Shown: positions 16,414 through 51,917 of the stretch, in pieces
Numbering within the stretch: the first letter of the stretch is position 1
How the letters are laid out: the number at the start of each line of letters is the position of its first letter
DNA from: an uncultured delta proteobacterium
Lineage (GTDB): Bacteria > Desulfobacterota > Desulfobacteria > Desulfobacterales > UBA2156
Direction: 5' to 3'
Assembly: GCA_963736855.1 (NCBI GenBank)
Contig: CAVTQK010000023.1
Coordinates: 64,001 to 128,000, forward strand
DNA: 64,000 bases
Notes under the pieces: model-generated
What the model saw: the letters and a program-made list of their open reading frames with translations, nothing else
Database searches by the model: none
Told to the model about the DNA's origin: nothing
Translations under genes and position numbers: made by a program

Positions 16414-16422
16414 GTTCCTGAG

Positions 16423-21110: not shown

Positions 21111-21134
21111 AGGTTTTGTAAGGAGCCTTAGGAT

Positions 21135-23311: not shown

Positions 23312-23326
23312 GAAAGGGAGGGTCGT

Positions 23327-24811: not shown

Positions 24812-24834
24812 ACCGATCATTCAAGGAGGTCACG

Positions 24835-25323: not shown

Positions 25324-25336
25324 CGGTTAATTGCAA

Positions 25337-25750
25337 ATGAGAGAAGCGCGGCTTCTTGAACGCATCCGACACTGGGAAAAAGAACCGCACCGCCGCTCAC
25401 GGGAGGATCCGGGCAGAGTCATCGACTCCGTTATGAACTATCTGCAGCGGATCCTCAACACGCGCCGGGGGAACGCCCCGATCGCCGAAGATTTTGGTAT
25501 TCCCGATTTCACCGAATTTTTAAGCTCCTATCCTGACTCGTTACGGGAATTCGAACGGACGATCCGGGAAACGATTTTAAAATTTGAACCTCGTTTAAAG
25601 GCGGTCCGAGTATCTTTTATCCCTCAGGAAGAGGATCCGTTCGCCATCCATTTCCAAATTGCAGCCCGTTTGACCGCCGAGCATGGAAACCAGCCGGTAC
25701 AATTCGTCAGCCTGATGGATCATGAAGGCCGGATTCGGATCAACCGGTAA
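25337..25750 (+). CDS. tssE: T6SS baseplate subunit TssE (gp25-like)
   Basis: LQRILNTRRG, DFGIPD, ILKFEPRL. Confidence 0.93.
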   Translation: MREARLLERIRHWEKEPHRRSREDPGRVIDSVMNYLQRILNTRRGNAPIAEDFGIPDFTEFLSSYPDSLREFERTIRETILKFEPRLKAVRVSFIPQEEDPFAIHFQIAARLTAEHGNQPVQFVSLMDHEGRIRINR

Positions 25751-25783
25751 TCTATTCATTGTGCAAGGCTCGTTAGGAGATTC

Positions 25784-28539: not shown

Positions 28540-28580
28540 GTGACTAGTCGTCTGACGAAAATCTTACATAGGAGAAATTC

Positions 28581-31217: not shown

Positions 31218-31219
31218 CC

Positions 31220-38730: not shown

Positions 38731-40185
38731 ATGCCCACCATCCGCATCCATGTTGAAAAAGGTGGTTCCGACCAGAAAGACTATTCCTTTACCGAAGCCT
38801 TTCGGATCGGGCGCGGGAGCACCTGCCAGGTCCGGCTGACCGACAATGTCGTAAGCCGGCAACACGTGGAAATCCTGTTTATCGGCGACCGTTGGTGGAT
38901 ACAGGATCTGGGAAGCGCCAATGGTACCTTCATCGCCGACCGACGCATTGAACGGGAGCCTCTGGAAAACGGCACCCAAATCCGACTCGGACCCGATGGC
39001 CCACTGCTTATTGTTTCCCTTGAAGAGGCCGCCCCACCCGAAACACCTGAACAAGACGCCCAATCACTCACCTATTATCGGAACCATTACCTCGAAAGCA
39101 AGGATGAAGGAAAAGCCGGGCAGCATACGATGATGATACGGAAGGCCTTCTCCCAGGTCCAAAAAAAACAGAAAAGAAAATATTTTACCATCATCGGTAT
39201 TGTCGTTTGTCTCCTCATCGTAGTCGGCACTTTCGCAACCGTCAAACATTACCAGCTCAAAAAACAGCGCAAGCTGGCCGAGGATATCTTCTATAACATG
39301 AAGGTAATGGAGCTGGACTTTTCCGAACTGTTGAGGATTGCCCGGGAAACGAAAGATAAGAAAATCATCGAAAAAGTCGATCAATACAAGACCAAACGCC
39401 GGGAGATGGAGACAAAATACGACCGTTTCATCGAAACGCTTAAAGTCTATAAAAAAGACATGAGTCCTCAAGAACGACTGATTCTCCAAAAAGCGAGAAT
39501 TTTCGGCGAATGTGAAATCAACGTGCCTGAAGATTTTGCCAGGGAAGTGTTGAGGTATATCGACAAGTGGAAATCGAGTCCGCGCATGGCGGACGCCATC
39601 GATTGCGCCCAAAAAAATAGCTATATCGATATCATCAGTCAAACGCTGGCCACTTATGATCTGCCGCCGGAATTTTTTTATCTGGCACTACAGGAGAGCA
39701 ATTTTAATAAAGACGCCGTCGGTCCGGAGACCCGATGGGGATTCGCCAAGGGGATGTGGCAATTTATTCCTGATACGGCAAAGCGATATGGCCTAAAAAC
39801 AGGACCGTTGGTCAAGCAGAACCGACCCGACCCGAAAGATGATCGACACAATCCGAAAAAAGCCACACTGGCCGCGGCGAAATACCTGCGCGATATATAT
39901 GATACGGACGCTCAGGCTTCGGGGCTTCTCGTCATGGCATCATACAACTGGGGAGAAAACCGCGTGATCGAACTGATCCGGAAAATTCCCGAAAATCCGC
40001 GTGACCGTAATTTTTGGAATCTGCTCGTTAAGTACAAGGAAAAAATTCCAGCCCAAACCTATGATTATGTTTTTTTTATTTTCTCGGCGGCCGTCATCGG
40101 AGAAAATCCCAGGCTTTTCGGATTCGCCTTTGACAATCCTCTGGGTACGATTCAACCGGCTGAGGCCAAAGCAGTGAAAGGATAA
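38731..40185 (+). CDS. FHA domain - TM - Slt lytic transglycosylase fusion
   Basis: FHA motifs IGR...VSRQH...DLGSANGT, a TM helix, and Slt motifs QESNF, GMWQFIPDTA, AAAKYL, ASYNWGE. Confidence 0.9.
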   Translation: MPTIRIHVEKGGSDQKDYSFTEAFRIGRGSTCQVRLTDNVVSRQHVEILFIGDRWWIQDLGSANGTFIADRRIEREPLENGTQIRLGPDGPLLIVSLEEAAPPETPEQDAQSLTYYRNHYLESKDEGKAGQHTMMIRKAFSQVQKKQKRKYFTIIGIVVCLLIVVGTFATVKHYQLKKQRKLAEDIFYNMKVMELDFSELLRIARETKDKKIIEKVDQYKTKRREMETKYDRFIETLKVYKKDMSPQERLILQKARIFGECEINVPEDFAREVLRYIDKWKSSPRMADAIDCAQKNSYIDIISQTLATYDLPPEFFYLALQESNFNKDAVGPETRWGFAKGMWQFIPDTAKRYGLKTGPLVKQNRPDPKDDRHNPKKATLAAAKYLRDIYDTDAQASGLLVMASYNWGENRVIELIRKIPENPRDRNFWNLLVKYKEKIPAQTYDYVFFIFSAAVIGENPRLFGFAFDNPLGTIQPAEAKAVKG

Positions 40186-40189
40186 AGAA

Positions 40190-40966
40190 ATGAAACGCAT
40201 CTGGATGAGCTCACTTATTTCAAATAAGGAGGCCGTTCAAAAGCTTATGACTGCGATGAAGCCCTATGGCCTGACAGTGGACGGTCATTTTTGGACGGAC
40301 GATGTGAAAAAAATCGGCTGGATATTGCCCAGGAAGGAATTGCTCGATCCAAAAACGGCTTTGTGGTTAATTCTGACTTCGGTCGAAGAAATGTTAAAAC
40401 CTTCCATCCGTTACGGGTTGTCCCTGCTTGCACTGGCCGTTCAGGCCAACAGGGAAACCGGGTTACCTATCACAATCCTGCAGACTTCCGGCGATCCCAT
40501 CTCCCCTGAAACACTCACCACTCCGTTGAAAGCTGCAGAGGTGCTTTCCCACAAAGGCACCGTTCCTGGAGCCAAACTGGTGGCCATGGTACATCAACCT
40601 TTCCAACCGATCGTACCGGAATATCGTTTTGACATTTACGGCCATGAGCAGATCGGCCAGTGGTTCGAAGTCGGCCCCAGACAAACAGACTGGAAGGGTG
40701 CTATGTTCGGCGTCCATGGAGGAGAGATTACAATTCACGCCGTAGGTCCCAAAGGCCGGTTACCCGAAAAGTCGGTCCTTCATTACCCCATGAAAGGGAT
40801 GAAACTGGTTTTAGGAAAAGAAGAATATGTTGCCTGGGCCGTCCAAAATCCGCTGAATCAGGACACATCCTATTATATCAAGGTTGACGGATGCCCGGAT
40901 TCCATCATCTTCGGTCCTTTAGCCGAGAAAGATGAAGCGGATGTTTATATGATGAAACTAAAATAA
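40190..40966 (+). CDS. Hypothetical protein with possible TIR-like N-terminal fold
   Basis: 258 aa, 4 nt after the FHA-Slt gene, with an alternating beta/alpha pattern resembling TIR_2. Confidence 0.6.
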   Translation: MKRIWMSSLISNKEAVQKLMTAMKPYGLTVDGHFWTDDVKKIGWILPRKELLDPKTALWLILTSVEEMLKPSIRYGLSLLALAVQANRETGLPITILQTSGDPISPETLTTPLKAAEVLSHKGTVPGAKLVAMVHQPFQPIVPEYRFDIYGHEQIGQWFEVGPRQTDWKGAMFGVHGGEITIHAVGPKGRLPEKSVLHYPMKGMKLVLGKEEYVAWAVQNPLNQDTSYYIKVDGCPDSIIFGPLAEKDEADVYMMKLK

Positions 40967-41026
40967 CCTAAAGGATTGACCCGTATGCATCCATACGAGT
41001 CCGCAATGAATATTTTCAGACTATCA

Positions 41027-41056
41027 TTGACAGAGGCATCGGAACCCTGCTATGAA
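41027..41056 (+). promoter_or_regulatory. Putative sigma70 promoter
   Basis: TTGACA-18 nt-(TGC)TATGAA upstream of RBS GAGGGA and ATG 41092. Confidence 0.4.
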
Positions 41057-41091
41057 ATATTAAAATTTATCAATCAATCTGAGGGATTAGC

Positions 41092-41856
41092 ATGATGATT
41101 CAAGACGTATCGCGAAAAGATCTGGGTAATGAGGAGTTTTTAAGTCTCAGACAGGCGACCGACAAGATTGCCGGGTCTCTTAAAAAGCGCCTTACGGCGC
41201 ACCTGTCGGTATTAAAACCGCTGTTTATTCCTCGAAAACTGCTGGGAACCTACATTCAAAGCGCCTCAAGCGATGATGTGGTGGGTTCGGATAAAGCCTT
41301 TGCCAGGCTTCAGCAGTTATACGCCGCGATCAGCGAAAATCCCTTTGGATTGCGCAAGAAATTGGTTCCCCCGCTGCCGGCAATCTCCAATCAGATAGAA
41401 TATGTCCCTTTTCAATATACGGTTCAATTCAGTGAGGAGGGGGTAAAAACGGTAACCATTACCTCTCCCACGCGATATATTCTATCTTACGAGAGCAAAT
41501 GCCCCATCAACCGGCTCAAAGGGATGGTCTCCGGAACGGAATCCCGACACCCTGAAGACCTGAAACAGTCCCTGATCAATCATCTATGCATGGGAATTAT
41601 GCTCGAACAATTTCCCGAGTTAAAAGAACTTCTTCAAGATCTGAGATACGATGTTGAAATCCGAAAAATCGATGAGCTGGGCGGTCTGCCCGTGGTGATC
41701 CTATCCGTTCCTTTGAAAACCTTTCTCCCTTCCGACGAATTTATTATCCAGGTCACTCAACTTTCGGGAGTTCCGGCTTTTCAAGAGATCATCGACCTGG
41801 ATGCTGTTGAAAACATGGGTGATCCGCTGAAAGACATCCTGAGGCAGAACATTTAG
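41092..41856 (+). CDS. Hypothetical protein within the T6SS accessory region
   Basis: 254 aa ORF with RBS and globular composition. No motif recognised. Confidence 0.7.
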   Translation: MMIQDVSRKDLGNEEFLSLRQATDKIAGSLKKRLTAHLSVLKPLFIPRKLLGTYIQSASSDDVVGSDKAFARLQQLYAAISENPFGLRKKLVPPLPAISNQIEYVPFQYTVQFSEEGVKTVTITSPTRYILSYESKCPINRLKGMVSGTESRHPEDLKQSLINHLCMGIMLEQFPELKELLQDLRYDVEIRKIDELGGLPVVILSVPLKTFLPSDEFIIQVTQLSGVPAFQEIIDLDAVENMGDPLKDILRQNI

Positions 41857-41927
41857 CACGAATAGTTCATGAAATTTTTCAATGATAATCAATTTAAGTT
41901 ATCTTTGACCGCTTGAAGCACTTTTAA

Positions 41928-43508
41928 CTACCACAACAGGGACAGCTCCACCTTTTCACCCGACGGCAAGATTTGACGTGACGGTGTGAGAATAATTCGA
42001 ACGGGTATTTTCCCTTCAGAATCAGGCTTACCGGTATCAATTTCCAGCATTTCAGGTTCCGGATTTCCGCGATGCTCCCAAAAAAGCCGAAACGCCTCTC
42101 TGATTCGGCCTTTAAGCGTGGCCGATTCGAGCCCTTCCTCAAATTTATCCTGACACCACAGTATCAATCGGGTCACGAGTCCTACCAAGAGCTGGTAATC
42201 GACCGGGGTCCTTCCAGTCGTTACCGCCGAAGGTAAAAACACGAAGTCGCGTCCGCTCACCCCGGCCATGGGCATGATTCCGGCTTTCACCATCTGGTCA
42301 ATCCGATTTTCAGACAGTGCCGTTTCCGCGGGATGCGGATGACGGGGGTCGGTCATGTCAAGAGGCAGGTTTTCAAGGCTTCCCGACTTCATACCGACAA
42401 AACGGGTCGGCCATCCAGTTTGTATGACGCGTCGACAGATCAGGTTTCCTACCGCCCAAACCGGGCTGATCCATAGAGACCGACGCTCCGCAAACGACAC
42501 CTGCCGGGGTTTATTGTCCGGGCCATACGGATAACGAGCCAACAGGCAATTCCCGATAACCCCTAGCCATCGTCCCGCGGGAGAATCACCCAAGATTCGC
42601 CATTTGGCAAAAGATGCATCGTCCAGATGGTGGGGCAGAAATGTCAGCTTGTCCAAATCCTTCCAAGAATTGATCTGGAAAAATTTGGGCGTGATCCAAA
42701 CCATGGACGGGGCAAGTAGAGTTTCTGAAAATTCGGCAATTTTTTTCATCAAATCCAAACATCTTGGGGAACTGTCGAAAGGCATATCCACCAGAACCAG
42801 GGATGGCGGATCTTGCAGCTGTTGAGCCATCAAGAAGGATAGGTTCTCTTCCAACAATTCGGGTTCGCAAGGGAAAATGTCAATTTCAACCTGTCCATTT
42901 GTGCCCCCATGTTTCATGAGCAGTTCCAGGCCCCGCCAGGCCGCTTCCATTTGCCTGAACGGTTCATAGTCGAAAATATTCACCATGCACTGGCTAAGAA
43001 TTCTATCCAAGTCGGATGAAACCGTTCTGGATTCTAAAGGGGTCTTTGATCCATTTTCCGGCATCGCCACCATAGAAAGAATGCTGTCTATTTGTGAAGA
43101 CGTATCGTCACCCGGTTTCCGGGCAATATCTTTTTGCGGGGTCTGAACCTTTAAAGCCGGCAGGTCCGGCCAGGTTTGAAGACCTGTTCTTATCTGATTT
43201 TCGGATAACCCCTTTTTGCCGGCATCCGCCATAAAATCACTGGCTTCCTTGATTTGGCTCAGATATCGGTTGCTCTGAATAAGTCCGTCCGGCGTGAAAT
43301 CCTTTATTTCTTTGAATTGCAGATCCACGCTGCCGGCCGGGCATAATGTCTGCGGCATCGGAATGCGGAGTACAGGATTCAATATTTTCAGGGCCTCTGA
43401 AAGCTCTCCCTGACGGATCCGTAAAGTTTCACGGATACCCGTAGGAGCATCACCGGACAAAAATGTCGCCAACGCCAAGACTTTGAATGGAATATCGGGA
43501 ATCTCCAT
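41928..43508 (-). CDS. Divergent TssB-TssC fused sheath-like protein
   Basis: N-terminal IPFKVLALATF...FKEIKDFTPDGL (TssB-like), then FRQMEAAWRGLELL, LARYPYG, LWISP, LENLP (TssC-like). Confidence 0.8.
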   Translation of the reverse strand: MEIPDIPFKVLALATFLSGDAPTGIRETLRIRQGELSEALKILNPVLRIPMPQTLCPAGSVDLQFKEIKDFTPDGLIQSNRYLSQIKEASDFMADAGKKGLSENQIRTGLQTWPDLPALKVQTPQKDIARKPGDDTSSQIDSILSMVAMPENGSKTPLESRTVSSDLDRILSQCMVNIFDYEPFRQMEAAWRGLELLMKHGGTNGQVEIDIFPCEPELLEENLSFLMAQQLQDPPSLVLVDMPFDSSPRCLDLMKKIAEFSETLLAPSMVWITPKFFQINSWKDLDKLTFLPHHLDDASFAKWRILGDSPAGRWLGVIGNCLLARYPYGPDNKPRQVSFAERRSLWISPVWAVGNLICRRVIQTGWPTRFVGMKSGSLENLPLDMTDPRHPHPAETALSENRIDQMVKAGIMPMAGVSGRDFVFLPSAVTTGRTPVDYQLLVGLVTRLILWCQDKFEEGLESATLKGRIREAFRLFWEHRGNPEPEMLEIDTGKPDSEGKIPVRIILTPSRQILPSGEKVELSLLW

Positions 43509-43550
43509 GATCGGCCCCCTAAAAAGGGATAAAACCGGGGAAGCTATTCG

Positions 43551-44675
43551 TTATCCGACAATCCGTTGAATAACTATCATCAACCGGTTCCACCATTCTT
43601 TTAATACACCGGCGGTGCCTCCGTCCGATGCGCTGGTGTTGAAAAAAACCTGCCAAACAACTATCGAAACCACGATAACAAAAAGCCCGATTAGAAAAAA
43701 CAATAGACCGTGACCCCGCCGCTTGAATTCAGGAACCCCCGGCCAGGCAGCATTCGCTTTTTCTAATGGTTTTCGAGAATCTTCTTCCATGGGTCGGCCG
43801 GCAACTTCTGCCAAGCGCCCGCCGCTTAAAAATTGGAAAACCGGTCCTCGGGGACCCAAAGACAAATGACTGCCTGGGTGAAGAGGAGTCTGGGAGCTTA
43901 CGGGTAAATCGTTAATGGTGACTAAACCCTGACCCGTCAAATCCTTAACCCAATAATTGTTCTCATAAAAAAAGATTTGGATATGCCGGTCGATAATATC
44001 GGCATGGTTGATGATGAAGTTACAATCATCCTTTTTCCCCACAACCACCGGAAGCATCTTAAAAGACTGAATGGTGGGACCCAACTGAATTGTCAGAGGA
44101 GCTTGAATCCGTGCTTCGGCCGGATCCGGTCTCCGTGGCGGTTCCGCAATCCTGGAAGGCATCTGTTCAGCGGACACTTTTGACAGAAGCGATTGCTTGG
44201 GGAATGGGGGTGACGGCCGATCCGGCGTTTGTACCTTTATGTGGTCTTCGGGGGCCGAGGCCGGCAGAGGGGTTACAGGAGGCTTCAGGGAAAACGCCGA
44301 TGCGTCTTTATCAGGTGTACCCAAAGAAGGTACGGAATACTCAACACCGGCCTCTTTTATCTCGGTCAGAAAACTGATCTTTGGGCCGCCTTCTCCTATC
44401 GTGAGCACATCGCCGTTTTTTAAGAACGTCTCCTTGACCGCCTTCCCATTGACGAAACTCCCGTTGGTGCTATGATCAACGAGCTTGAACCGATTCCCCT
44501 CCCGAACGATTTCTGCGTGGTTCCGGGAGATGAGGGTCAGGTCTTTAGGAAAACGTATTTGGCAATCGGGGTGTCTGCCGATTCGGATAACCGGGTCAGT
44601 GGACTCCTCGACTTTCCCTTTCAGGGGGCCGGCAATGTGAACGAGCTGAACGACAATGACCGGCTTTTCATGCAT
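43551..44675 (-). CDS. Double-FHA domain protein with Pro-rich linker and C-terminal TM
   Basis: FHA1 IGR...ISRNH...STNGS; degenerate FHA2 VGK...IDRH...DLTGQG; TM LLFFLIGLFVIVVSIVVW. Confidence 0.85.
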   Translation of the reverse strand: MHEKPVIVVQLVHIAGPLKGKVEESTDPVIRIGRHPDCQIRFPKDLTLISRNHAEIVREGNRFKLVDHSTNGSFVNGKAVKETFLKNGDVLTIGEGGPKISFLTEIKEAGVEYSVPSLGTPDKDASAFSLKPPVTPLPASAPEDHIKVQTPDRPSPPFPKQSLLSKVSAEQMPSRIAEPPRRPDPAEARIQAPLTIQLGPTIQSFKMLPVVVGKKDDCNFIINHADIIDRHIQIFFYENNYWVKDLTGQGLVTINDLPVSSQTPLHPGSHLSLGPRGPVFQFLSGGRLAEVAGRPMEEDSRKPLEKANAAWPGVPEFKRRGHGLLFFLIGLFVIVVSIVVWQVFFNTSASDGGTAGVLKEWWNRLMIVIQRIVG

Positions 44676-44963
44676 AATAATAGCATCCGAAAAGCAAAGT
44701 GGGATAAGAAACTCAGAATACACGTTCTGAATGACATAAAAAGTATAGCTTACAGTATGGCCATAATGTCAAGAAAATTCACCCCGATTTCGTCGGTTAA
44801 ATGAAAATATCATTGTCACCTTATATGGGTTATGCTATTTTATTTAAAATTACCAGATTCGTCCAGTCGCTCAACCGGCATCGACGGTATCCAATAAAGA
44901 TCGATTATCCAATTCAATCTCCATACCAATCGTGATGGTACAAAAGGGGAACCTGGACAGGTG

Positions 44964-45941
44964 ATGGGTAAAAGAAAATTTCTGAACACCATTTGGCTGC
45001 TTTCTATCTTTACTCTCATCACCCCTCTGAGGATACATGCCGGAACAAAAGAAAAAACATTCCCCTTACCCCGTGCTGCAGTCGAAGAAACCGTCATCTC
45101 ATGGCTGCAAGGATCCGGTTATAGCTTACAGGGTACCCATTTCGAAAAAGGTCTCACCGACATTTGGGCTGAAAAAGAGATGGAACGCTGGCATATCGTC
45201 ATTCAGCCGCAATCGGCCCTGGCCTGCCATGTGACCGCTGCCTGGACCGGACCCGACAACCCTAAAAACACTGATCCTTACAAGTCGTTATGGAACCGGA
45301 TATCAAACCACGACCAGCCTCCAAACCCGGATAACGACATGAACTACAAGGCCATCCCAAAGGAAGTGCGCTCCAGATTCGAGGCTGTTGTGCTCATTCG
45401 CATCGTCGGTGACGATGACGAAAAGCAAGTATCCGGGTTTTTCTTGGACGCCTATAAAGGACTGGTCATATCCACTGCCCATGACCTGATGGAATTTCAG
45501 AAAAGCACTATTGTCCTTTACAACGGTCTCGAAATCAATGGACAGGTAGTCTATTTGGATCAGCGCGTGGATCTTGCCCTCATCCAAGTGCAATTTACCC
45601 CAAAATCGGGTATTCTGTTGACAGAGAGCAGAAATCTGCTGAACTTGAGTGATCGGTTATATGCCATCGGTTATTCAACGGACCGTCGGTCTAAGGTGAC
45701 ACCCGGAATCGTCAGCGGGCCACCTCGGCGGGCCGACAGCCAGTTGTTATGGCAGGTGGAAATGAAAATTTTACCCGGCAACAGCGGCAGTCCGGTTTTT
45801 GATGAAAAGGGCCGCCTGGTGGCCGTGGTCAAGGGCCGGCATCGTGAAAAAGAATCGGTAGGTTTTTTAATTCCGCTGGAAACGGTTACTGCATTTATCA
45901 AGGCCAATATTGATTACGTTCAATTTAAAAAGCAAGACTGA
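44964..45941 (+). CDS. Exported trypsin-like (S1) serine protease
   Basis: Signal peptide; triad motifs STAH, VDLALI, GNSGSP. Confidence 0.9.
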   Translation: MGKRKFLNTIWLLSIFTLITPLRIHAGTKEKTFPLPRAAVEETVISWLQGSGYSLQGTHFEKGLTDIWAEKEMERWHIVIQPQSALACHVTAAWTGPDNPKNTDPYKSLWNRISNHDQPPNPDNDMNYKAIPKEVRSRFEAVVLIRIVGDDDEKQVSGFFLDAYKGLVISTAHDLMEFQKSTIVLYNGLEINGQVVYLDQRVDLALIQVQFTPKSGILLTESRNLLNLSDRLYAIGYSTDRRSKVTPGIVSGPPRRADSQLLWQVEMKILPGNSGSPVFDEKGRLVAVVKGRHREKESVGFLIPLETVTAFIKANIDYVQFKKQD

Positions 45942-45965
45942 ATATTCAACAACACGGTTAGAACC

Positions 45966-47666
45966 ATGAATGCCACCCAATACGGACGCTATCGCATCGT
46001 ATCCGAGCTGGGCAAAGGCGCCATGGGAATAGTTTATCAGGCCCATGACCCACAGATCGATCGAATGGTCGCTTTAAAGGTTCTTCGCCAGGACCGTGTA
46101 ATCGATCAGGGGTTTGTCCGACGTTTCCTTGCCGAAGCCCGGGTCATCGGCCGATTGTCGCATCCCAATATTGTTACGGTCTTTGATGTCGGTGAAGATC
46201 ACGGCACAATCTATATCGCCATGGAATTCCTTGAGGGACGTTCTTTGGATATGCTCATCCGGGAACAAACGTTCGGCTCGGAAAAAATCGTGGATCTGGG
46301 AATTCAGGTGGCCGACGCTCTGGATTACGCTCATCGGCAAGGGATTATTCATCGTGACATCAAACCGGGAAACATCATCATTACACCCCAGGGTCATGTT
46401 AAGGTTACGGATTTCGGGATTGCTCATATCGAGGGCACCTCAGACCATCAGATGACCCAGATGGGCGAGATTCTCGGCACGCCTATTTACATGGCACCGG
46501 AGCAGGTGGCCGGACAGCCGGTGGATGGCCGTTCCGACATCTATTCCCTGGGTGTCGTCCTTTATGAATTGGCTACCGGAAAGCGCCCGTTTGCCGGTGA
46601 TAATTTAGCGACACTGTTCAATGCCATTGCAAAAGAACAGCCGATAACCGTGTCTCAGCTGAACCCTAAAATTCCTTCAGCTTTTTCTGAACTGATCATG
46701 AAGTGTTTAAGCAAATCATCGGTGGAGCGATTTCAAAACGGTCAAAGCCTGTCCCAGGCATTAAAGGGATGCCTTGCGAACAGGCCGGGTCTTGCCACTC
46801 CGCTCAGTCAAATTCCAAAAAAGCGAAGAAACGGAATGTATGTACTTTCCGGTGTGGCCGTAATTGTATTGGTTGGGGTCTTGACCTTTTTCTTTATTTC
46901 GGATCGAACACCTCCCCAAAAACCCATTGCATCCAATACCCCGAAGACACCTGCCGAGTCACTGAAGATACCCGATGCAGAAAAGAGAAAACCGAGTCAG
47001 GTTATTTTACCGAAAGAGAAACCGATTGAGCAAGAACCCGTTAGCAAACTGGATGAAAAAAGCTTAAAAGAAGAACCCACCTTAAAAATGCCTTCCGGAA
47101 AACCAAAGCCGCTTCAGATAACGTCGACCCAAAAAATCGACACGCCTTCCCCGACACCGAAATTTGAACCGAGAAAAAGGATCCCCATCGTTGACCATCA
47201 AACGGAACAAAAACCGCAACGCTCAACCCTGGACGTCCAAACCACGCCAAAAGAGCTTAGCCCCAGCTCAACAGGGAAAGATGATAAAAACGACATACCA
47301 CGCGAATCCACACCCAGAAAACCTTCTGAAGGGGTAAAGCCGGTTCAAATCCCGGCAACATCCGAAACAGCATCAACTTCTCCGATACCAGCAAAAGCAG
47401 AACCCCAAAAAACCATCGCTGCCGTTGACCATAAACCGGAACAAAAAAGTGAGCCATCCACACTAAATATCCAGAGTGTACCCGAAGGTGCCGGCTTTTA
47501 TTTGAACGGCAAGTTTAAGGGAACGACACCGTACAAGGTGAATCTGCCCTATGGTAAATATGAAGTTCGAGTTGAATACGAGAATTATTACGATTGGGAA
47601 GCTCAGGTCAATCTCGATAAACCGGGAGAGACACCCCTTCGCATTCGACTGATCCCCAAGGACTAA
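45966..47666 (+). CDS. Membrane Ser/Thr protein kinase (PpkA/PknB-like) with C-terminal PEGA domain
   Basis: LGKGAMG, VALK, HRDIKPGN, DFG, YMAPE, a TM, a Pro/Lys-rich stalk, and SVPEGA...GTTP...LPYGKYEV. Confidence 0.93.
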   Translation: MNATQYGRYRIVSELGKGAMGIVYQAHDPQIDRMVALKVLRQDRVIDQGFVRRFLAEARVIGRLSHPNIVTVFDVGEDHGTIYIAMEFLEGRSLDMLIREQTFGSEKIVDLGIQVADALDYAHRQGIIHRDIKPGNIIITPQGHVKVTDFGIAHIEGTSDHQMTQMGEILGTPIYMAPEQVAGQPVDGRSDIYSLGVVLYELATGKRPFAGDNLATLFNAIAKEQPITVSQLNPKIPSAFSELIMKCLSKSSVERFQNGQSLSQALKGCLANRPGLATPLSQIPKKRRNGMYVLSGVAVIVLVGVLTFFFISDRTPPQKPIASNTPKTPAESLKIPDAEKRKPSQVILPKEKPIEQEPVSKLDEKSLKEEPTLKMPSGKPKPLQITSTQKIDTPSPTPKFEPRKRIPIVDHQTEQKPQRSTLDVQTTPKELSPSSTGKDDKNDIPRESTPRKPSEGVKPVQIPATSETASTSPIPAKAEPQKTIAAVDHKPEQKSEPSTLNIQSVPEGAGFYLNGKFKGTTPYKVNLPYGKYEVRVEYENYYDWEAQVNLDKPGETPLRIRLIPKD

Positions 47667-47686
47667 ATTTCTTTCAAGTCAGGAGG

Positions 47687-49675
47687 ATGACCATGAAAAC
47701 GTTAAGAAAATCGTTGGTGTTTTTGTTTTTAATCTGCCTGGCCGGTTCGGGACTTTTAGCAGCTGCCCAGGTTTCCGGACAGCCCGCTCCAGGATCGGCG
47801 GCGCCGGTTTTCACATTAAAGGATGTCTTTGGACGGCCATATGATCTTTCAAGCATGCAAGACCGGCCAATGATCATCCTCTATTTTTTTGATGCAACAT
47901 CCAAGGCGAGCCGAACCGGTTTGCAGCACCTCGATCAGTTGTCGCGAACCTATAAAGATGCGGAGCTGGTTGTTTGGGGGATCACCCGGTCCGCTGCAAG
48001 CCATGTGAACGATTTCGTTACCAAGGCCGATCTGCAATTTCCCGTTTTAGTCGATACAGAGAAAGTCAGCGACACATACCAGGCCTCGACCATCCTGCCC
48101 ACGGTGTATATTCTCGGTCCGAGATTTAAAGTCCTTGATATTTTTCAGGGAGGCGGAAAAACCACCGAGGTCATGTTGACTCGGCTGGCCTCCAGACAAC
48201 TGGATCGCAAACAGACGATGATGGCCAAGGCTATCAGCCGGGAAGTCGAGAAAAACGACCCCGGGAATGTGGAGGCTAAAACCATCATGGGATACGCCGC
48301 CCTTAAGGAACGTAACTTCCCCGAGGCGGAAAAGAACTTTAAGGAAGTTACCACCCTCAAAGGGGAGGGAGAAATTCTAGGAAAAGAAGGATTGTCCGCA
48401 GTTTATGCTCAAAAAGGCGAAACCGATAAGGCCCTGGCTCTGGCAACGGAAGTGGAAGGAAAAGCGCCGGATCGCGCCTATGTCAATGTGGTGAAAGGCG
48501 ACATGCTATACAGCCAGGGGAAAAAAGAAGCAGCCGCAGCCGAATACAACAAAGCGGTTAACAAACCAGAAGGCGAACCGTTCCAAAAGGCGGTTGCCCT
48601 CAATCAATTGGGTCGTATGCAATCCAACCAGGGTCATTATGACTCGGCCCGAAGTCTTTACGATCAGGCTGTAGAAATCAACCCTTATTACATTGAGGCT
48701 ACATCCAACAAAGGGGTCAGCTATCAAAAAGAAGGCGATTGGGCCAAGGCACATGAAGCTTTCAAGGCGGCTCTTGACCTGAGCAGGAATGATACCTATG
48801 CAGCCGTATTGGCAAAACAAAGCGAGGAAATGCTGGCGCTGCAAAAAGATTCGGCCAGAAGGGAAAGGGTCGATAAACTGGTAAAAGAGCTGGCCGAGCG
48901 TTACAAGAGCCAGAAGCCGATCTTCTTCGGAAAAAAAGATGAGTGGACGTCCCGACCCATGATCCTGACCTTTGTGGATATGCAGGAACAAGGTGCTCTG
49001 GCTCAAAGGGATGGAACTCCCGCTGTTTTAAGCAACTTATTAACCGGCCATTTGAACACTTCCGGCCGCGTCCAGGTAGTGGAGCGGGTCCTCATCGAAC
49101 GGCTTCTTGAAGAATTAAATCTGGGGTCATCGGACCTTGCCGATCCGGAAACGGCATTGAAACTCGGAAGGATATTGGCTGCCAAACTGATCGGTACCGG
49201 AATGATTGTTCACATGCCGGATAAAACGCTGTTGTCCATGAGACTCATCGATACCGAAACTTCCGCCGTTGCAAGGGTTTTCACCCGGAAGATGGATCCA
49301 TCCGCGCCCCTTGAGACGGAACTTAAAGCGCTGGATCAGGAGATTTTAAAGGCCGTCATCACCAAATATCCGTTGCGGGGATATCTGGTCCAGGTGGATA
49401 AAGATCGGGTAACGGTCAACTTGGGGACCAATCAGGGCGTTGTGATGGGCACTAAGTTCGAGGTCATCCAGTCGGGCAAACCCATCAAGTACAAAGGCAA
49501 AGAACTCGAAGGGCCGGCCCAGGTCATCGGTGAGCTGGAAGTGGTGGAAACCGGTCCGGATATGTCTTTTGCCACGGTTATTCAAGCCGACCGACCCTTA
49601 CAAAAAGACGACAGGGTAAAGGAAAAGCTGGAAGATGTGGTGGCGATGGAGGGAAAAGATGCGGCAAAAGAATAA
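47687..49675 (+). CDS. Exported redoxin-like + TPR + CsgG/FlgO-like + FlgT-C-like multidomain protein
   Basis: Signal peptide, APVFTLKD (redoxin), TPR helices, VQVVERVLIERLLEELNLG, VNLGTNQGVVMG. Confidence 0.75.
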   Translation: MTMKTLRKSLVFLFLICLAGSGLLAAAQVSGQPAPGSAAPVFTLKDVFGRPYDLSSMQDRPMIILYFFDATSKASRTGLQHLDQLSRTYKDAELVVWGITRSAASHVNDFVTKADLQFPVLVDTEKVSDTYQASTILPTVYILGPRFKVLDIFQGGGKTTEVMLTRLASRQLDRKQTMMAKAISREVEKNDPGNVEAKTIMGYAALKERNFPEAEKNFKEVTTLKGEGEILGKEGLSAVYAQKGETDKALALATEVEGKAPDRAYVNVVKGDMLYSQGKKEAAAAEYNKAVNKPEGEPFQKAVALNQLGRMQSNQGHYDSARSLYDQAVEINPYYIEATSNKGVSYQKEGDWAKAHEAFKAALDLSRNDTYAAVLAKQSEEMLALQKDSARRERVDKLVKELAERYKSQKPIFFGKKDEWTSRPMILTFVDMQEQGALAQRDGTPAVLSNLLTGHLNTSGRVQVVERVLIERLLEELNLGSSDLADPETALKLGRILAAKLIGTGMIVHMPDKTLLSMRLIDTETSAVARVFTRKMDPSAPLETELKALDQEILKAVITKYPLRGYLVQVDKDRVTVNLGTNQGVVMGTKFEVIQSGKPIKYKGKELEGPAQVIGELEVVETGPDMSFATVIQADRPLQKDDRVKEKLEDVVAMEGKDAAKE

Positions 49676-50174
49676 ACTGCCGTTAGCCGTTGTGATCGTC
49701 CTGGTTCTTGCCGGATGTGCGGGTGCGCCGCCTGTCCCCGAAAGTATGGATTATGGATCCGGGACGATCGTTGCCCTGTGGAACCTGGAAGACCTCAGTC
49801 CCGTTAAAAGCAGCCAACCGGAACTTGCGGAATTTATTTCCACATCAATTATCGAGACCCTCGAAAGCCGCTGTGAGTTTAGAATCGTTGAACGGGAAAA
49901 ATTGATTTTGGCCCTGGAAGAACTCCACATAGGGTCCAGCGAATTGGCCAGTGAAAGCACACGGCTGAAGATCGGCAGGATTTTAGGGGCCGAACTTATG
50001 CTCTTCGGCGCCTATCAGGTCATCGGTGACATCGTTCGCCTGGACCTGCGGCTCGTGGATGTGGAGCGGGGTCTCGTCGTTAAGGTCGCTTCCAGCGAAG
50101 TTGCCGCAAAGGATCTCGACGCCCGTCTCAAAGGGGTCGAAACAGCCGCAGCGGAGTTATGCGAATCCCCATGA
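49659..50174 (+). CDS. CsgG/FlgO-family lipoprotein
   Basis: Lipobox LAGC; IVEREKLILALEELHIG...KIGRILGAE...LRLVDVERG. Confidence 0.8.
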   Translation: MRQKNKLPLAVVIVLVLAGCAGAPPVPESMDYGSGTIVALWNLEDLSPVKSSQPELAEFISTSIIETLESRCEFRIVEREKLILALEELHIGSSELASESTRLKIGRILGAELMLFGAYQVIGDIVRLDLRLVDVERGLVVKVASSEVAAKDLDARLKGVETAAAELCESP

Positions 50175-50216
50175 TAGGGGATGCGCTGCTGATCGACCCC
50201 GGCCCTTTCCTCTCAT

Positions 50217-51591
50217 TCAAGAAGCCGATATTTGCTTCTCTGGAAAAAAGGAAAGCAATTTTATTTTTCGATTTAATCCACATGTAAAGAAAAAGGACTG
50301 TATGCCACTTAAAGGGTTGCCCGCTACATCCGAAAACCCTTCAAGGTTAAAAGTTATATAGATGGTGGACATTAGGGTGGTTAGTGATATGGGACACAGT
50401 ATGCATTAGTGTTTTCCATGACATGATAAGTGCTGTATTATTGTTCTCCCATGCTGGTATTACCAATATGTCCAGCCTGAAATCACGGTCTGGTACGACC
50501 CTGCCTGCGGATGAATTCATGGCTTCTGAAAAATAAAATACGATTTGTTGCTCAATTCTGCTGTAACACCCTATTGTGCTACCAGCCGATGGAGAAGTTC
50601 CCGTCACTGTCGGAGGTGTGGTGTCGGTCGGAGGCGGCGGCGGTGGATTATCCTCCTCTTCTTCATCATCCTTTAGAGCCGTCGCCGCATAATATCCGCC
50701 TGCACCGACGGCTGCCAAGCCGAGGATTACGGCCGCGGTCTTTCCCGCTCCGCCTGATTTCGGTTCGATCTTGGCTTCCGGGGTCGATTCTTTAGGCTTT
50801 GGTGTTTCTGCGCTTTTGGATGTAAGTCCCAGCGTGTTGATCTCGTTCAACGCCTCCTTGGCCGGCACCAGGTTCGGGTCTTTGGCCAATGCCTGGTTAT
50901 AAAGGTCGGCAGCCTGAGCATAATTTCCGTGATCGCTGGCATCGATTCCCTTGAATAACAGCATCAAGGCCGGAATGCTGGCGGTAACGGGCTTTTCCAG
51001 TTCCGCCTTCTGATCCGGGGTCAATGTAATGTCCATGAGCCGGACAATCTCAAACAGGATCTGTTTTTCAATGGCAATCAGATCCTCCAGATTGCCTTCA
51101 GCGGCAGCCTGGTTGACGATCTTTTGATTGGAGACATTCAAAAGCCTGGGATCAACCCGCAACTGGGTGGCTTTTCCCTTAAGGATATCCCCGCCGGATA
51201 AAAACCGGGCCCCCACCAGTTTTCCTATCCTCGGAACGGTTTCCTTATCCACCAGACCCGTTTTGCCCAGCTCAATCTCCTCCAATATGGCCTGAAGCCT
51301 GGCCCTCTCCACGACCTTAAAATCTTTTAACTTGGCAAGATCGGTTGTCAGCATGACCGATAACCCCTTTTGAAGGGGATTATAGGACTCGTTGCCGGTT
51401 AAATTCTGGTAATACAGGACGGCAACGGATTTGGATGAAGGAACGGCAGGGAGCGATTTTTCATTGGCAATGGCTTGTTTGGCCCACTGAGTTATGTCCT
51501 TGGTGACGACTTGTCCCGTAAAACCTAACCCCGGATGGAAAAGTCCGATGAATAAAAAAAGGCCGATAGTCCCCAGAGCTGTTTTTTTCAT
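50217..51591 (-). CDS. CsgG/FlgO + TPR + Ig-like (Big_5) exported protein, probable frameshift at about 50360-50430
   Basis: VVERARLQAILEEIELG, a TPR, DTTPPTVTGTSP...FSEAMN. The Ig end motif SDVAGNPLSGIQSFFFT is in the adjacent frame, which stops at 50217; the annotated frame stops at 50347. Confidence 0.7.
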
Positions 51592-51917
51592 GTCGCCTCC
51601 CCGGCTGAGTGTTTGATGGCGAATCAACAGAATATGTAATGGCACAAATTGCTTCTCTAAGAGTCATCATCAATCATAAATATCCGGGCTAAGTCAAGAT
51701 TTTTCTGGCAATGCTGTTTCAAGGGTTTTATTTCAAGGTCTTGCGGTTGAAATTCGGATTTGAGCCACCGAAAACATCGGCTATTTTGTCTCACGATGTC
51801 TTCCCATCCTTGAACTTAAAAGGGTAGAAATGATAGAAGCAGTACCCAAAGCGGTGAACGAAATGGCACACGACAGGGCCTTTTCCCGGCTTTTCCCCAT
51901 TGCCTCCCCTTTCAATT

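What the first reader, a model, noticed from the sequence alone, without database searches (positions are those of the whole stretch)
38731..51591. Candidate non-canonical phospho-signalling and envelope-sensing module attached to a T6SS
Seen: next to the T6SS are a Ser/Thr kinase with PEGA, two membrane-anchored FHA proteins, an exported S1 protease and three exported CsgG/FlgO-domain proteins that share VER..L...LEE(L/I)..G. Established: the Pseudomonas H1-T6SS uses TagQRST-PpkA-Fha-PppA. No TagQ/TagR, PppA or intact Fha is recognisable in this window. Inference: the CsgG/TPR proteins and the protease form an alternative envelope sensor that activates the kinase, which is read by separate FHA proteins. 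This is my best candidate for an undescribed system.
Basis: partly seen in the sequence, partly recalled or inferred. Interest (0 to 1): 0.8.

Follow-up and report, generated by a model that had tools for sequence, protein, structure and literature searches.

The report
T6SS phospho-switch with envelope sensor
Next to a bacterial injection weapon (type VI secretion), this sulfate-reducer relative carries a conserved, undescribed gene set (a membrane kinase, phosphothreonine readers, periplasmic proteins and an extra one-piece sheath protein) that probably switches the weapon on from envelope signals, although this copy lacks its phosphatase.

Summary
Window 38731-51645 encodes an active-looking Ser/Thr kinase with one membrane helix and a PEGA domain, two FHA proteins with membrane helices, an exported trypsin-like protease and three exported CsgG-fold proteins.

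The set is conserved in Desulfobacterota MAGs at the far end of T6SS clusters. In a 401-genome phylum sample, 16 of 18 genomes with the large sensor protein also have TssF. Among the other 382 genomes, 28 do. In sheath-paralogue loci, a kinase or PP2C is present in 28 of 33 with the double-FHA gene and in 0 of 25 without it.

The family module normally includes a PppA-like PP2C and an outer-membrane barrel. This window lacks both, and its ClpV has two frameshifts, so this copy is reduced and possibly decaying.

Distant homologues of the TPR-CsgG part are periplasmic halves of membrane cyclase/CHAT proteins, which supports a sensor role.

Verdict: a new variant of the T6SS threonine-phosphorylation pathway. 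The link to T6SS rests on synteny and co-occurrence. The mechanism is inferred. Interest 0.62.

The parts
38731..40185 (+). FHA - one membrane helix - periplasmic SLT lytic transglycosylase (484 aa)
   Evidence: FHA E 1.2e-18 and SLT E 4.1e-19. Hydropathy helix at residues 148-175. Orthologues with E<=1e-100 in 6 of 76 loci. The QES motif is kept in 7 of 7 sequences and canonical FHA residues in 6 of 7.
40190..40966 (+). Unknown 258-aa cytoplasmic protein: CheY/TIR-like alpha/beta domain plus beta-barrel. The most constant neighbour of the sheath paralogue.
   Evidence: No Pfam or NCBIfam hit. Beside the sheath paralogue in 36 of 72 loci. AF2 model pLDDT 90.9. Residues 1-140 match receiver, TIR and flavodoxin-like folds at Z 10-13.
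41092..41856 (+). Unknown 254-aa protein
   Evidence: No family hit and no usable Atlas hit. Orthologues in 14 of 76 loci.
41928..43508 (-). Fused TssB-linker-TssC sheath paralogue (526 aa)
   Evidence: PF05591 28.4 bits and PF05943 119.7 bits. 22% identity to the window's own TssC. AF2 pLDDT 86.3 with a disordered linker at 124-161. Foldseek top hits are TssC chains, TM 0.65-0.72. 134 representatives at E<=1e-30 in 1.84 billion proteins.
43551..44723 (-). Double-FHA protein, here with a C-terminal membrane helix. The likely start is the Met 16 codons downstream of the listed GTG.
   Evidence: Two FHA stretches, E 1.6e-28. FHA1 is canonical and FHA2 degenerate. The membrane helix 335-366 is present in 1 of 49 aligned sequences, this one. 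Found immediately upstream of the sheath paralogue in 43 of 76 loci.
44724..44960 (.). Divergent intergenic region. Relatives have the PP2C (PppA-like) gene here.
   Evidence: 237 nt, with no PP2C remnant by tblastn. Weak promoter-like sites on both strands.
44961..45941 (+). [quoted passage not shown]
   Evidence: Trypsin_2 E 3.4e-19. H174, D204 and S275 are invariant in 13 of 13.
45966..47666 (+). Hanks Ser/Thr kinase - membrane helix - periplasmic PEGA domain (PpkA analogue)
   Evidence: K38, HRD 129-131 and DFG 149-151 are invariant in 13 of 13. A ~170-aa Pro/Lys/Ser/Thr-rich insert between helix and PEGA occurs only in the window.
47687..49675 (+). Exported 662-aa protein: redox-dead thioredoxin fold - TPR - CsgG-like - FlgT_C-like
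   Evidence: The CxxC site reads SxxS in 18 of 19 sequences, SxxC in 1, and CxxC in 0. 51-59% identical full-length orthologues in 17 of 400 other genomes of the phylum sample, plus a partial match (64% over residues 230-569) in an 18th.
49635..50174 (+). Small CsgG/LpoB-fold lipoprotein
   Evidence: CsgG 36.1 bits and LpoB 23.4 bits. The lipobox Cys28 is invariant in 13 of 13. N-termini shown.
50347..51645 (-). Exported CsgG-TPR protein. Its last ~157 residues are a non-homologous tail with a cut-off Big_5 start, at the place where relatives have an outer-membrane barrel gene.
   Evidence: The homologous part ends near window position 50818. The barrel of relatives has no tblastn match anywhere in this genome.
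12631..13512 (+). T6SS_FHA_C protein without an FHA domain (TagH C-terminal half only), in the T6SS core cluster
   Evidence: The same architecture is seen in a relative. Conserved in 4 relatives.
28581..31217 (+). ClpV, read in three frames because of two frameshifts
   Evidence: Contigs of 4 public runs carry the in-frame version at both sites where they cover them.
11105..33268 (+). T6SS core cluster (context): unknown Cys-rich gene, TagH-C, TssJKLM, TagF, TssA, TssB, TssC, Hcp, TssE, TssF, TssG, ClpV, VgrG

Best explanation
The region is the accessory end of a Desulfobacterota T6SS cluster. It most likely works as a threonine-phosphorylation switch for that T6SS.

Input (inferred): an envelope-facing set reports the state of the outer membrane or cell wall. 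The set consists of a CsgG-fold lipoprotein, a CsgG-TPR protein, and a large protein made of a redox-dead thioredoxin fold, TPR, a CsgG-like domain and an FlgT_C-like domain. Relatives add an outer-membrane barrel. An active-looking trypsin-like protease is co-encoded and may convert the signal by cleavage, as DegS does.

Transduction (inferred): the set acts on the periplasmic PEGA domain of a single-pass Hanks kinase, the PpkA analogue.

Read-out (inferred): phosphothreonine is read by the canonical first FHA domain of a double-FHA protein. That protein is always encoded directly upstream of a fused TssB-TssC sheath paralogue. A second reader is an FHA protein whose periplasmic half is a lytic transglycosylase, which would open the cell wall where the machine is built. 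In relatives a PP2C phosphatase resets the switch.

Shown here: the domain content, the intact catalytic motifs, the conserved gene order, and the co-occurrence with T6SS and with each other.

Not shown: every binding, sensing and phosphorylation step.

This particular genome carries a reduced copy. It has no PP2C at the locus and no barrel, the double-FHA protein has gained a membrane helix, the kinase has a 170-aa linker insert, and ClpV is interrupted twice. I put it at about even odds that the switch, or the whole T6SS, is impaired here.
For: Domains and motifs:
- Domain content.
- Kinase catalytic residues invariant in 13 of 13.
- Protease triad invariant in 13 of 13.
- FHA1 keeps GR, SRxH and NG in at least 90% of 49 sequences.
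- The SLT QES motif is kept in 7 of 7.

Synteny:
- The same order recurs in relatives from families f21, f52, f97 and f60: T6SS core ... unk258/unk254 | sheath paralogue <- double-FHA | PP2C -> protease -> kinase-PEGA -> Trx-TPR-CsgG -> lipoprotein | barrel <- CsgG-TPR.
- In 5 of the 7 genomes where both lie on one contig (own genome included), the module is 18-30 kb from TssF.

Co-occurrence in the 401-genome phylum sample:
- 16 of 18 genomes with the sensor orthologue have TssF, against 28 of the other 382. The two without TssF are 84-85% complete.
- These 18 genomes come from 9 families.
- The kinase is adjacent to the sensor gene in 15 of 18.

Reader linked to kinase:
- Among sheath-paralogue loci with at least 3 kb upstream, a kinase or PP2C is present in 28 of 33 with the double-FHA gene and 0 of 25 without it.

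Sensor role:
- 30-36% identical homologues of the TPR-CsgG part form the periplasmic half of single-pass proteins with a cytoplasmic cyclase, with or without a CHAT domain. All 3 of 3 examined show this, and they are flanked by a FadL-like barrel and a CsgG/LpoB lipoprotein.

Literature:
- The minimal T6SS phosphorylation pathway is tagE/tagG/tagH, with interchangeable upstream activators (TagQRST, RtkS). Source: passages of PMC13584744.
- An outer-membrane anchor, TssW, acts on PpkA in Acidovorax. Source: abstract and passages of PMC12607579.
Against: - No experiment, expression data or interaction evidence exists for any component.
- In G338 the sensor-protease-kinase set lies 282 kb from TssF, with no PP2C, double-FHA or sheath paralogue in the 20 kb fetched. 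In G053 it is 68 kb away.
- 4 of 15 assessable sensor-seeded genomes lack the PP2C nearby: G338, G006, G284 and G209.
- Distant paralogues of the sensor occur mostly without a T6SS: 2 of 13 genomes have TssF.
- The genome has a second protease-FHA / kinase / FHA / PP2C locus unrelated to the T6SS, so such modules need not serve secretion.
- The genomes are related, so the counts overstate independence.
- In this genome the interrupted ClpV and the missing PP2C make present-day function doubtful.
Confidence: 0.6

Rival explanations
1. The periplasmic proteins are structural parts, not sensors. They would form an outer-membrane-anchored ring or scaffold, as FlgT does in the flagellar H-ring and as CsgG/PelC-type lipoprotein rings do. 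This scaffold would position or stabilise the T6SS membrane complex. The kinase would act as a positioning or scaffolding element, as TssW-PpkA does in Acidovorax or TslA/TagM1 in Acinetobacter and Burkholderia.
For: - CsgG-like plus FlgT_C domains in the 662-aa protein, and CsgG/LpoB folds in the two others.
- A lipobox in the small protein.
- Overlapping or tightly spaced genes that suggest fixed stoichiometry.
- TssW and TslA precedents, from passages of PMC12607579 and PMC13584744.
- The ring-forming behaviour of FlgT, CsgG and PelC is recalled and comes from no call.
Against: - Homologous TPR-CsgG modules are fused to cyclase/CHAT outputs in genomes without a T6SS. That fits a signalling input better than a T6SS-specific scaffold.
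- An intact protease triad and a PP2C in relatives point to a reversible switch.
- The two readings are not exclusive.
Confidence: 0.17
2. The kinase / FHA / protease / CsgG set is a general envelope-stress or cell-wall-homeostasis signalling system. It would often be parked next to T6SS genes without controlling them.
For: - G338 and G053 have the set 282 kb and 68 kb from TssF.
- A second, T6SS-unlinked protease-FHA / kinase / FHA / PP2C locus with ABC, FtsX and LolA-like genes exists in this genome.
- LpoB-like and SLT domains suggest cell-wall biology.
Against: - 16 of 18 sensor-orthologue genomes have TssF, against 28 of the other 382.
- The same gene order sits at the end of T6SS clusters in relatives from four different families.
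- The double-FHA gene is always directly upstream of a sheath paralogue, which is itself embedded in T6SS clusters.
Confidence: 0.13
3. In this genome the locus is a non-functional remnant of the module and of its T6SS.
For: - ClpV has a 1-base loss after 29304 and a 1-base gain at 30421-30423, relative to every covering contig of 4 public runs from 4 studies.
- Both indels lie in one gene, and no other long gene of the 64-kb window is split. This argues for mutation rather than random assembly error (inference).
- The PP2C and the barrel are missing, and the CsgG-TPR gene ends in a truncated foreign tail.
Against: - All other T6SS core genes and all module genes are open, with intact catalytic motifs.
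- Assembly error cannot be excluded, because no run of the source strain was identified.
- Some T6SSs keep partial activity without ClpV (recalled).
- This is a statement about one genome. It does not compete with the reading of the family.
Confidence: 0.4

Closest known systems
Pseudomonas aeruginosa H1-T6SS threonine phosphorylation pathway (TagQRST-PpkA-PppA-Fha1)
   Same: A single-pass Hanks kinase with a periplasmic domain, a PP2C (in relatives), FHA reader(s) and outer-membrane or periplasmic upstream proteins, all encoded with a T6SS that also has TagF.
   Different: - The periplasmic domain is PEGA. PpkA's is vWA (recalled).
- No TagR-type FGE-sulfatase lies on the contig.
- The ABC/FtsX pair upstream of the cluster is not conserved in relatives.
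- The FHA and T6SS_FHA_C domains are on separate proteins.
- Added parts: a protease, CsgG-fold proteins, an FHA-SLT protein and a sheath paralogue.
- This window lacks the PP2C.
Other PpkA input variants: RtkS-PpkA (Serratia), TssW-PpkA-Fha (Acidovorax citrulli), PpkA-pTssL-Fha (Agrobacterium)
   Same: These show that the kinase-FHA core is kept while the upstream envelope partner and the phospho-target vary. Sources: passages of PMC13584744; abstract and passages of PMC12607579; search listing of PMC3953482.
   Different: None of these upstream partners is a CsgG-fold, TPR or thioredoxin-like protein or a protease. No sequence relation to them was tested, because their sequences were not fetched.
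TssB/TssC (VipA/VipB) contractile sheath
   Same: Residues 5-95 match TssB and 155-424 match TssC in profile searches. The model superposes on TssC chains over about 420 columns, TM 0.65-0.72.
   Different: - It is one polypeptide with a 38-residue disordered linker.
- It is 22% identical to the cluster's own TssC and scores below the NCBIfam equivalog cut-offs.
- The last ~40-60 residues of TssB and the first ~30-50 of TssC have no counterpart. These segments form the ClpV-recognised outer domain of canonical sheaths (recalled).
- It exists in addition to a normal TssB/TssC pair.
TagX / MltE cell-wall remodelling for T6SS assembly
   Same: A peptidoglycan-cleaving enzyme dedicated to, or recruited by, a T6SS. 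Source: passages of PMC13584744.
   Different: Here the enzyme is an SLT lytic transglycosylase fused, through a membrane helix, to a cytoplasmic FHA domain. That would put wall cleavage under phosphothreonine control. TagX is an endopeptidase and MltE a housekeeping lipoprotein.
FlgT, CsgG and LpoB periplasmic alpha/beta domains; ResA/TlpA thioredoxins; DegS-type proteases
   Same: Shared domain folds by Pfam and PDB sequence profiles.
   Different: - CsgG matches cover only profile positions 10-105 of 210.
- The thioredoxin fold has no CxxC.
- The protease has no PDZ domain.

Membership tests
T6SS threonine phosphorylation pathway (TagE/PpkA - TagG/PppA - TagH/Fha1) | Hanks Ser/Thr kinase with one membrane helix and a periplasmic domain, encoded with T6SS genes | tested here: met
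   Pkinase E 5.6e-58. Membrane helix at 288-316. Catalytic residues invariant in 13 of 13. The gene lies 12.7 kb beyond VgrG in the window, and in the same place in 4 relatives.
T6SS threonine phosphorylation pathway (TagE/PpkA - TagG/PppA - TagH/Fha1) | PP2C phosphatase in the same cluster | tested here: not met
   Window: none. The only PP2C of the genome is at C8:116650-117387. Relatives: present in 21 of 21 kinase-bearing loci and in 11 of 18 sensor-seeded genomes.
T6SS threonine phosphorylation pathway (TagE/PpkA - TagG/PppA - TagH/Fha1) | TagH: FHA domain and T6SS_FHA_C domain in one protein | tested here: not met
   The T6SS_FHA_C protein (12631-13512) has no FHA domain, and the same holds in G321. 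The FHA domains lie on two other proteins.
T6SS threonine phosphorylation pathway (TagE/PpkA - TagG/PppA - TagH/Fha1) | TagQRST upstream activators | tested here: not met
   No FGE-sulfatase match on contig C23. That TagR carries this domain is recalled. The ABC/FtsX pair at 8915-10859 has no counterpart next to the T6SS of 4 relatives. TagQ has no profile that I could use.
T6SS threonine phosphorylation pathway (TagE/PpkA - TagG/PppA - TagH/Fha1) | Phosphorylation-dependent activation of T6SS assembly | not testable with these tools
   Needs genetics or biochemistry.
TssB/TssC contractile sheath | Sequence membership in PF05591 and PF05943 | tested here: met
   28.4 bits (cut-off 24) and 119.7 bits (cut-off 27).
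TssB/TssC contractile sheath | Equivalog-level match (TIGR03355, TIGR03358) | tested here: not met
   105.4 bits against a cut-off of 271.5, and 22.2 against 97.25.
TssB/TssC contractile sheath | Sheath protomer fold | tested here: met
   AF2 pLDDT 86.3. Foldseek hits 5n8n_B, 3j9g and 5urx: probability 1.00, TM 0.65-0.72.
TssB/TssC contractile sheath | Two separate subunits that polymerise round the Hcp tube | tested here: not met
   It is a single 526-aa polypeptide. Polymerisation is not testable here.
CsgG curli secretion channel (PF03783) | Full-length match including the membrane-spanning part | tested here: not met
   Scores are above the cut-off, but only profile positions 10-105 of 210 are matched in all three proteins. 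The PDB CsgG match is E 7e-4 over 95 residues.
HtrA/DegP/DegS proteases | Trypsin fold with a His-Asp-Ser triad | tested here: met
   H174, D204 and S275 invariant in 13 of 13.
HtrA/DegP/DegS proteases | C-terminal PDZ domain(s) | tested here: not met
   No PDZ hit. TIGR02037 scores 64.9 against a cut-off of 416.
ResA/TlpA thiol-disulfide oxidoreductases | CxxC active site | tested here: not met
   The fold matches ResA at E 1.9e-13. The site reads SxxS in 18 of 19 sequences, SxxC in 1 and CxxC in 0.
SLT lytic transglycosylase (PF01464) | Pfam match and the catalytic Glu-Ser motif | tested here: met
   68.7 bits against a cut-off of 21.3. QES kept in 7 of 7. Which residue is catalytic is recalled.

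The most novel reading that the evidence does not exclude
The kinase pathway acts directly on a dedicated sheath-like subunit. In this reading the double-FHA protein, always encoded immediately upstream, recruits or releases the fused TssB-TssC paralogue in a phosphothreonine-dependent way. The paralogue would then start, cap or block polymerisation of the normal TssB/TssC sheath. T6SS firing would be gated at the level of the sheath, a control point not described for any T6SS.
Probability: 0.15. Interest if true: 0.85.

Novelty: new variant of a known kind. Interest (0 to 1): 0.62.

Why it matters
How a T6SS decides when and where to fire is known in detail for only a few Proteobacteria. The upstream envelope sensors differ in each of them.

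This module would add a third or fourth kind of input, made of CsgG-fold/TPR proteins, a redox-dead thioredoxin fold, a protease and a PEGA domain. It would also add two new outputs: a lytic transglycosylase under FHA control, and a one-piece sheath paralogue. All of this is in a phylum where T6SS has hardly been studied.

The TPR-CsgG / lipoprotein / barrel set also appears as the periplasmic half of cyclase and CHAT proteins. It may therefore be a general plug-in envelope sensor.

The sheath paralogue is currently labelled as ordinary TssC or ImpC in public records (names), so annotation pipelines hide it.

Tried and rejected
- Complex prediction (collected). Chains: the kinase PEGA domain with the protease, the C-terminal half of the 662-aa protein, and the small lipoprotein. 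Result: no verdict, score 0.00. This is no evidence either way.
- Expression: no RNA holder was listed for the ClpV stretch, so nothing can be said about expression.
- unk254: no Pfam, NCBIfam or Atlas lead.
- unk258: Foldseek gave only weak two-domain matches, TM about 0.3. VIA-align gave a generic receiver/TIR/flavodoxin-like fold for residues 1-140 and barely tested the C-terminal barrel. No function follows.
- The MacB-type ABC pump at 5823-10859 as a TagS/TagT analogue: rejected, because it is not next to the T6SS in G090, G321, G361 or G310.
- unk528 (11105-12691) as a TagH-adjacent pseudokinase of the kind earlier notes describe: hhalign against the kinase alignment gave probability 0.2%, and Pfam gave only a zinc-ribbon-like hit at E 0.04.
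- Earlier notes searched by place and by sequence with three proteins: nothing.
- Literature searches and term look-ups in the 2026 review of T6SS accessory genes (0 occurrences of CsgG, PEGA, Desulf, paralog, trypsin) found no description of this module or of a fused sheath paralogue. Subscription journals and supplements were not searched.
- PHROGs and PADLOC were not run.
- Slips corrected: a frame with stop codons; coordinates out of range; a term with a slash.

Full report
WHAT IS IN THE WINDOW

The window is G000:C23:64001-128000, from a 3.9-Mb genome of 25 contigs.

Positions 11105-33268 on the plus strand hold a T6SS core cluster. In order it encodes:
- an unknown Cys-rich gene
- a T6SS_FHA_C protein without an FHA domain
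- TssJ, TssK, TssL, TssM, TagF, TssA, TssB, TssC, Hcp, a 139-aa TssE candidate, TssF and TssG
- ClpV, which is read in three frames
- VgrG

LysM, PG_binding and C39-like genes and two unknown genes follow, up to 38277.

The finding region then holds the following genes:
- FHA-helix-SLT, 38731-40185, plus strand
- unknown 258-aa protein, 40190-40966, plus strand
- unknown 254-aa protein, 41092-41856, plus strand
- a 526-aa protein with VipA and VipB matches, 41928-43508, minus strand
- a double-FHA protein with a C-terminal helix, 43551-44723, minus strand
- a trypsin-like protease, 44961-45941, plus strand
- kinase-helix-PEGA, 45966-47666, plus strand
- AhpC-like / TPR / CsgG / FlgT_C protein, 47687-49675, plus strand
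- a CsgG/LpoB-fold lipoprotein, 49635-50174, plus strand
- CsgG-TPR protein, 50347-51645, minus strand

The thiol peroxidase gene at 51918-52454 is not conserved beside the module in relatives (0 of 76 loci). I leave it out.

CHECK OF THE OBSERVATION

The shared VER..L...LEE..G motif is the conserved core of the CsgG/LpoB-type domain, so it marks a family and not a special link.

THE MODULE IS CONSERVED AND LINKED TO T6SS

I seeded one survey with the sheath-like protein. It has 129 homologues of about 520 aa. Those that carry a source name are labelled Desulfobacterota or Deltaproteobacteria MAGs. An alignment of 31 of them found 76 loci in the species-representative genome collection.

I labelled open reading frames with the window's own proteins, plus a PP2C and a barrel taken from locus L047. 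Counts among the 76 loci:
- double-FHA gene: 43
- unk258: 36
- PP2C: 30
- kinase-PEGA orthologue (E<=1e-100): 21
- large sensor protein: 15
- protease: 14
- T6SS core genes inside the 10-kb flanks: 19

All 21 loci with the kinase orthologue also have the PP2C and the double-FHA gene.

Among loci with at least 3 kb upstream, a PP2C or a Hanks kinase is present in 28 of 33 that have the double-FHA gene and in 0 of 25 that lack it.

The sheath paralogue and unk258 also sit inside T6SS clusters that have no kinase. Examples lie next to ClpV or TssJ, including two complete Maridesulfovibrio chromosomes.

A second survey did not depend on the sheath gene. It used a sample of 401 genomes of the phylum:
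- Full-length orthologues of the 662-aa protein (51-59% identity) occur in 17 genomes other than the window's own, and an 18th (G371) has a partial match (64% identity over residues 230-569, one stop inside). The 18 come from 9 families.
- 16 of these 18 have TssF. The two without it are 84% and 85% complete.
- TssF occurs in 28 of the remaining 382 genomes.
- The sheath paralogue (E<=1e-30) occurs in 19 genomes, and 18 of them have TssF.

I fetched the surroundings in all 18 genomes:
- The kinase-PEGA gene is adjacent in 15. None is adjacent in G209. G212 and G371 are cut by contig ends.
- The double-FHA gene is present in 13.
- The PP2C is present in 11. It is absent with enough flank in 4 (G338, G006, G284, G209) and not assessable in 3.

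In G090, G321, G361 and G310, which belong to four different families, the whole arrangement lies at the far end of one T6SS cluster. The window shows the same layout.

There are exceptions. In G338 the sensor-protease-kinase set is 282 kb from TssF and has no FHA, PP2C or sheath gene in the 20 kb fetched. In G053 it is 68 kb away.

The genomes are related, so these counts are not independent trials.

HOW THIS COPY DIFFERS FROM THE FAMILY

- No PP2C. The gap between the double-FHA gene and the protease gene is 237 nt and holds no remnant. The only PP2C of the genome is on contig C8 and is 38-42% identical to the module's PP2Cs.
- No outer-membrane barrel anywhere in the genome. The CsgG-TPR gene runs on into a roughly 157-residue foreign tail with a truncated Big_5 start.
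- The C-terminal membrane helix of the double-FHA protein occurs in this sequence only. The other 48 aligned sequences end in a short basic-hydrophobic tail.
- The kinase has a roughly 170-residue Pro/Lys/Ser/Thr-rich insert between the helix and PEGA. The 12 aligned relatives lack it.
- ClpV is interrupted near 29304 and near 30421. Relatives have a single 875-909-aa ClpV.

I laid contigs of four public runs from four studies, 90-99% alike, on the ClpV stretch. They carry an extra C after 29304 (X1 and X3; X2 and X4 do not cover the site). They lack one base at 30421 or 30423 (all four). So the in-frame form is the common one.

Neither site is a homopolymer run. Both breaks fall in one gene, and no other long gene of the window is split. 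I read this as probable real decay. Assembly error is not excluded, because none of the runs is the source strain.

WHAT THE PARTS LOOK ABLE TO DO

- Kinase: the catalytic Lys, HRD and DFG are invariant.
- Protease: His, Asp and Ser are invariant, a conserved N-terminal domain is present, and there is no PDZ.
- 662-aa protein: its thioredoxin fold matches ResA, but the CxxC site reads SxxS in 18 of 19 sequences and CxxC in none. It is a conserved non-redox fold, perhaps a binding module.
- Small CsgG-fold protein: it has an invariant lipobox cysteine.
- Double-FHA protein: FHA1 keeps the phosphothreonine-binding residues. FHA2 has lost them.
- FHA-SLT protein: it keeps a canonical FHA (6 of 7), the membrane helix and the QES motif (7 of 7).

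SUPPORT FOR A SENSOR ROLE FROM DOMAIN FUSIONS

In one search, weaker matches (30-36% identity) to the TPR-CsgG-FlgT_C part fell in 1068-1205-aa frames in 12 genomes and in a 780-aa frame in one (G206).

I examined three of these 13. G108 and G232 encode cyclase-CHAT-helix-TPR-CsgG. G206 encodes cyclase-helix-TPR-CsgG. In the G108 locus the neighbours are a FadL-like barrel, a CsgG/LpoB lipoprotein with a lipobox and an ECF sigma gene. In the G206 locus a CsgG/LpoB-fold protein lies next to the fused gene.

So the same kind of periplasmic set serves as the outer half of other transmembrane signalling proteins. Only 2 of these 13 genomes have TssF. The sensor type is therefore not T6SS-specific, whereas the kinase-linked orthologue group is.

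THE SHEATH PARALOGUE AND ITS NEIGHBOUR

Profile searches match residues 5-95 to TssB/VipA and residues 155-424 to TssC/VipB. The AF2 model has pLDDT 86.3 and pTM 0.85, with a disordered linker at 124-161. It superposes on TssC chains of five organisms at TM 0.65-0.72 over about 420 columns.

It is 22% identical to the cluster's own TssC. The genome has one normal TssB/TssC pair in addition.

The linker carries a conserved D-x-I-L-x-M-V-A-x-P-x-E motif. It resembles the ClpV-binding helix at the N-terminus of TssC. That resemblance is recalled and was not tested.

The family has 134 representatives at E<=1e-30 among 1.84 billion proteins.

unk258 folds confidently (pLDDT 90.9) into a receiver/TIR/flavodoxin-like domain plus a beta-barrel. 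No functional clue follows from this.

COMPARISON WITH WHAT IS KNOWN

A 2026 review of T6SS accessory genes (PMC13584744; I read passages) gives tagE, tagG and tagH as the minimal phosphorylation pathway. It lists TagQRST (Pseudomonas) and RtkS (Serratia) as alternative upstream activators, and TagX and MltE as wall remodellers. It does not contain the words CsgG, PEGA, trypsin, paralog or Desulf.

PMC12607579 (abstract and passages) adds an outer-membrane anchor, TssW, acting on PpkA.

PMC7159879 (passages) calls PEGA a peptidoglycan-associating domain.

My searches found no description of this module or of a fused sheath paralogue.

Two earlier notes of this scan describe what seem to be the same module (e1-1230905) and a related TPR/CsgG plus barrel trio that follows a kinase (e1-2072492) in other genomes. 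They are AI notes and not independent evidence.

VERDICT

This is a lineage-specific variant of the T6SS threonine-phosphorylation pathway. It has a new periplasmic input set, split FHA readers, an FHA-controlled lytic transglycosylase and a one-piece sheath paralogue.

The family-level module does contain a PppA-like phosphatase. This window is a reduced and possibly decaying copy.

The T6SS link and the kinase-FHA link rest on synteny and co-occurrence. Sensing, phosphorylation targets and the role of the sheath paralogue are inferred.

Noticed in passing
window 28581-31217: ClpV is split into three frames by a 1-base loss after 29304 and a 1-base gain at 30421-30423. Contigs of four public runs carry the in-frame form, and relatives have an intact ClpV of 875-909 aa.
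   Followed up: yes
L080 (G000:C8:108000-127500), about 8408-18175: A second, T6SS-unlinked phospho-module. It encodes an unknown 482-aa protein, a trypsin-FHA fusion (547 aa), a Ser/Thr kinase (612 aa), an FHA protein (206 aa) and the genome's only PP2C (327 aa). Divergent from these are an ABC ATPase, an FtsX/MacB-type permease and a LolA-like protein.
   Followed up: partly
L095:3533-6835, L096:3770-7069, L099:5554-7884: Single-pass membrane proteins with a cytoplasmic adenylate/guanylate cyclase (with or without a CHAT protease) and a periplasmic TPR-CsgG-like half. In L095 the neighbours are a FadL-like barrel, a CsgG/LpoB lipoprotein and an ECF sigma gene. In L099 a CsgG/LpoB-fold protein lies next to the fused gene. 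Neighbours in L096 were not examined. Most of the 13 genomes holding such matches lack a T6SS.
   Followed up: partly
window 11105-12691: The first gene of the T6SS cluster is an unknown protein with a cluster of invariant cysteines (zinc-ribbon-like). It is 528 aa here and 742-765 aa in two relatives with complete genes (a third is cut at a stretch end), and it sits directly upstream of the FHA-less TagH-C gene. No similarity to kinases was detected by hhalign, and the protein was not folded.
   Followed up: partly
G000:C15:539292-540962: One 624-aa open frame holds both a protein kinase domain and an FGE-sulfatase domain (the TagR-type domain). It is far from the T6SS.
   Followed up: no
window 33506-36133: Probable T6SS cargo region after VgrG: a LysM plus PG_binding protein, a C39-like peptidase, a 131-aa protein whose N-terminus contains the letters PAAR, and another PG_binding protein. 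Parts of this region are conserved in G090.
   Followed up: no
proteins P0242-P0263: A further group of 599-636-aa proteins matches the TssC-like part from about residue 200 of the target. They may be another class of long or fused sheath proteins.
   Followed up: no
window 46930-47450: The kinase's linker insert contains a stretch resembling the segment just before its own PEGA domain (...STLDVQTTP... against ...STLNIQSVP...). This suggests a partial internal duplication.
   Followed up: no
G000:C10:10261-11869: ClpB/ClpV-like pieces lie in five alternating frames on a 14.7-kb contig. This may be another decayed Clp gene or a low-quality contig.
   Followed up: no
L010:11708-13243 and L010:14885-18669: In some relatives the module carries extra signalling genes: an FHA-GAF-cyclase protein, a protein with three PEGA domains and a PEGA-TPR-kinase. 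G090 has a kinase-TPR protein next to unk258.
   Followed up: partly
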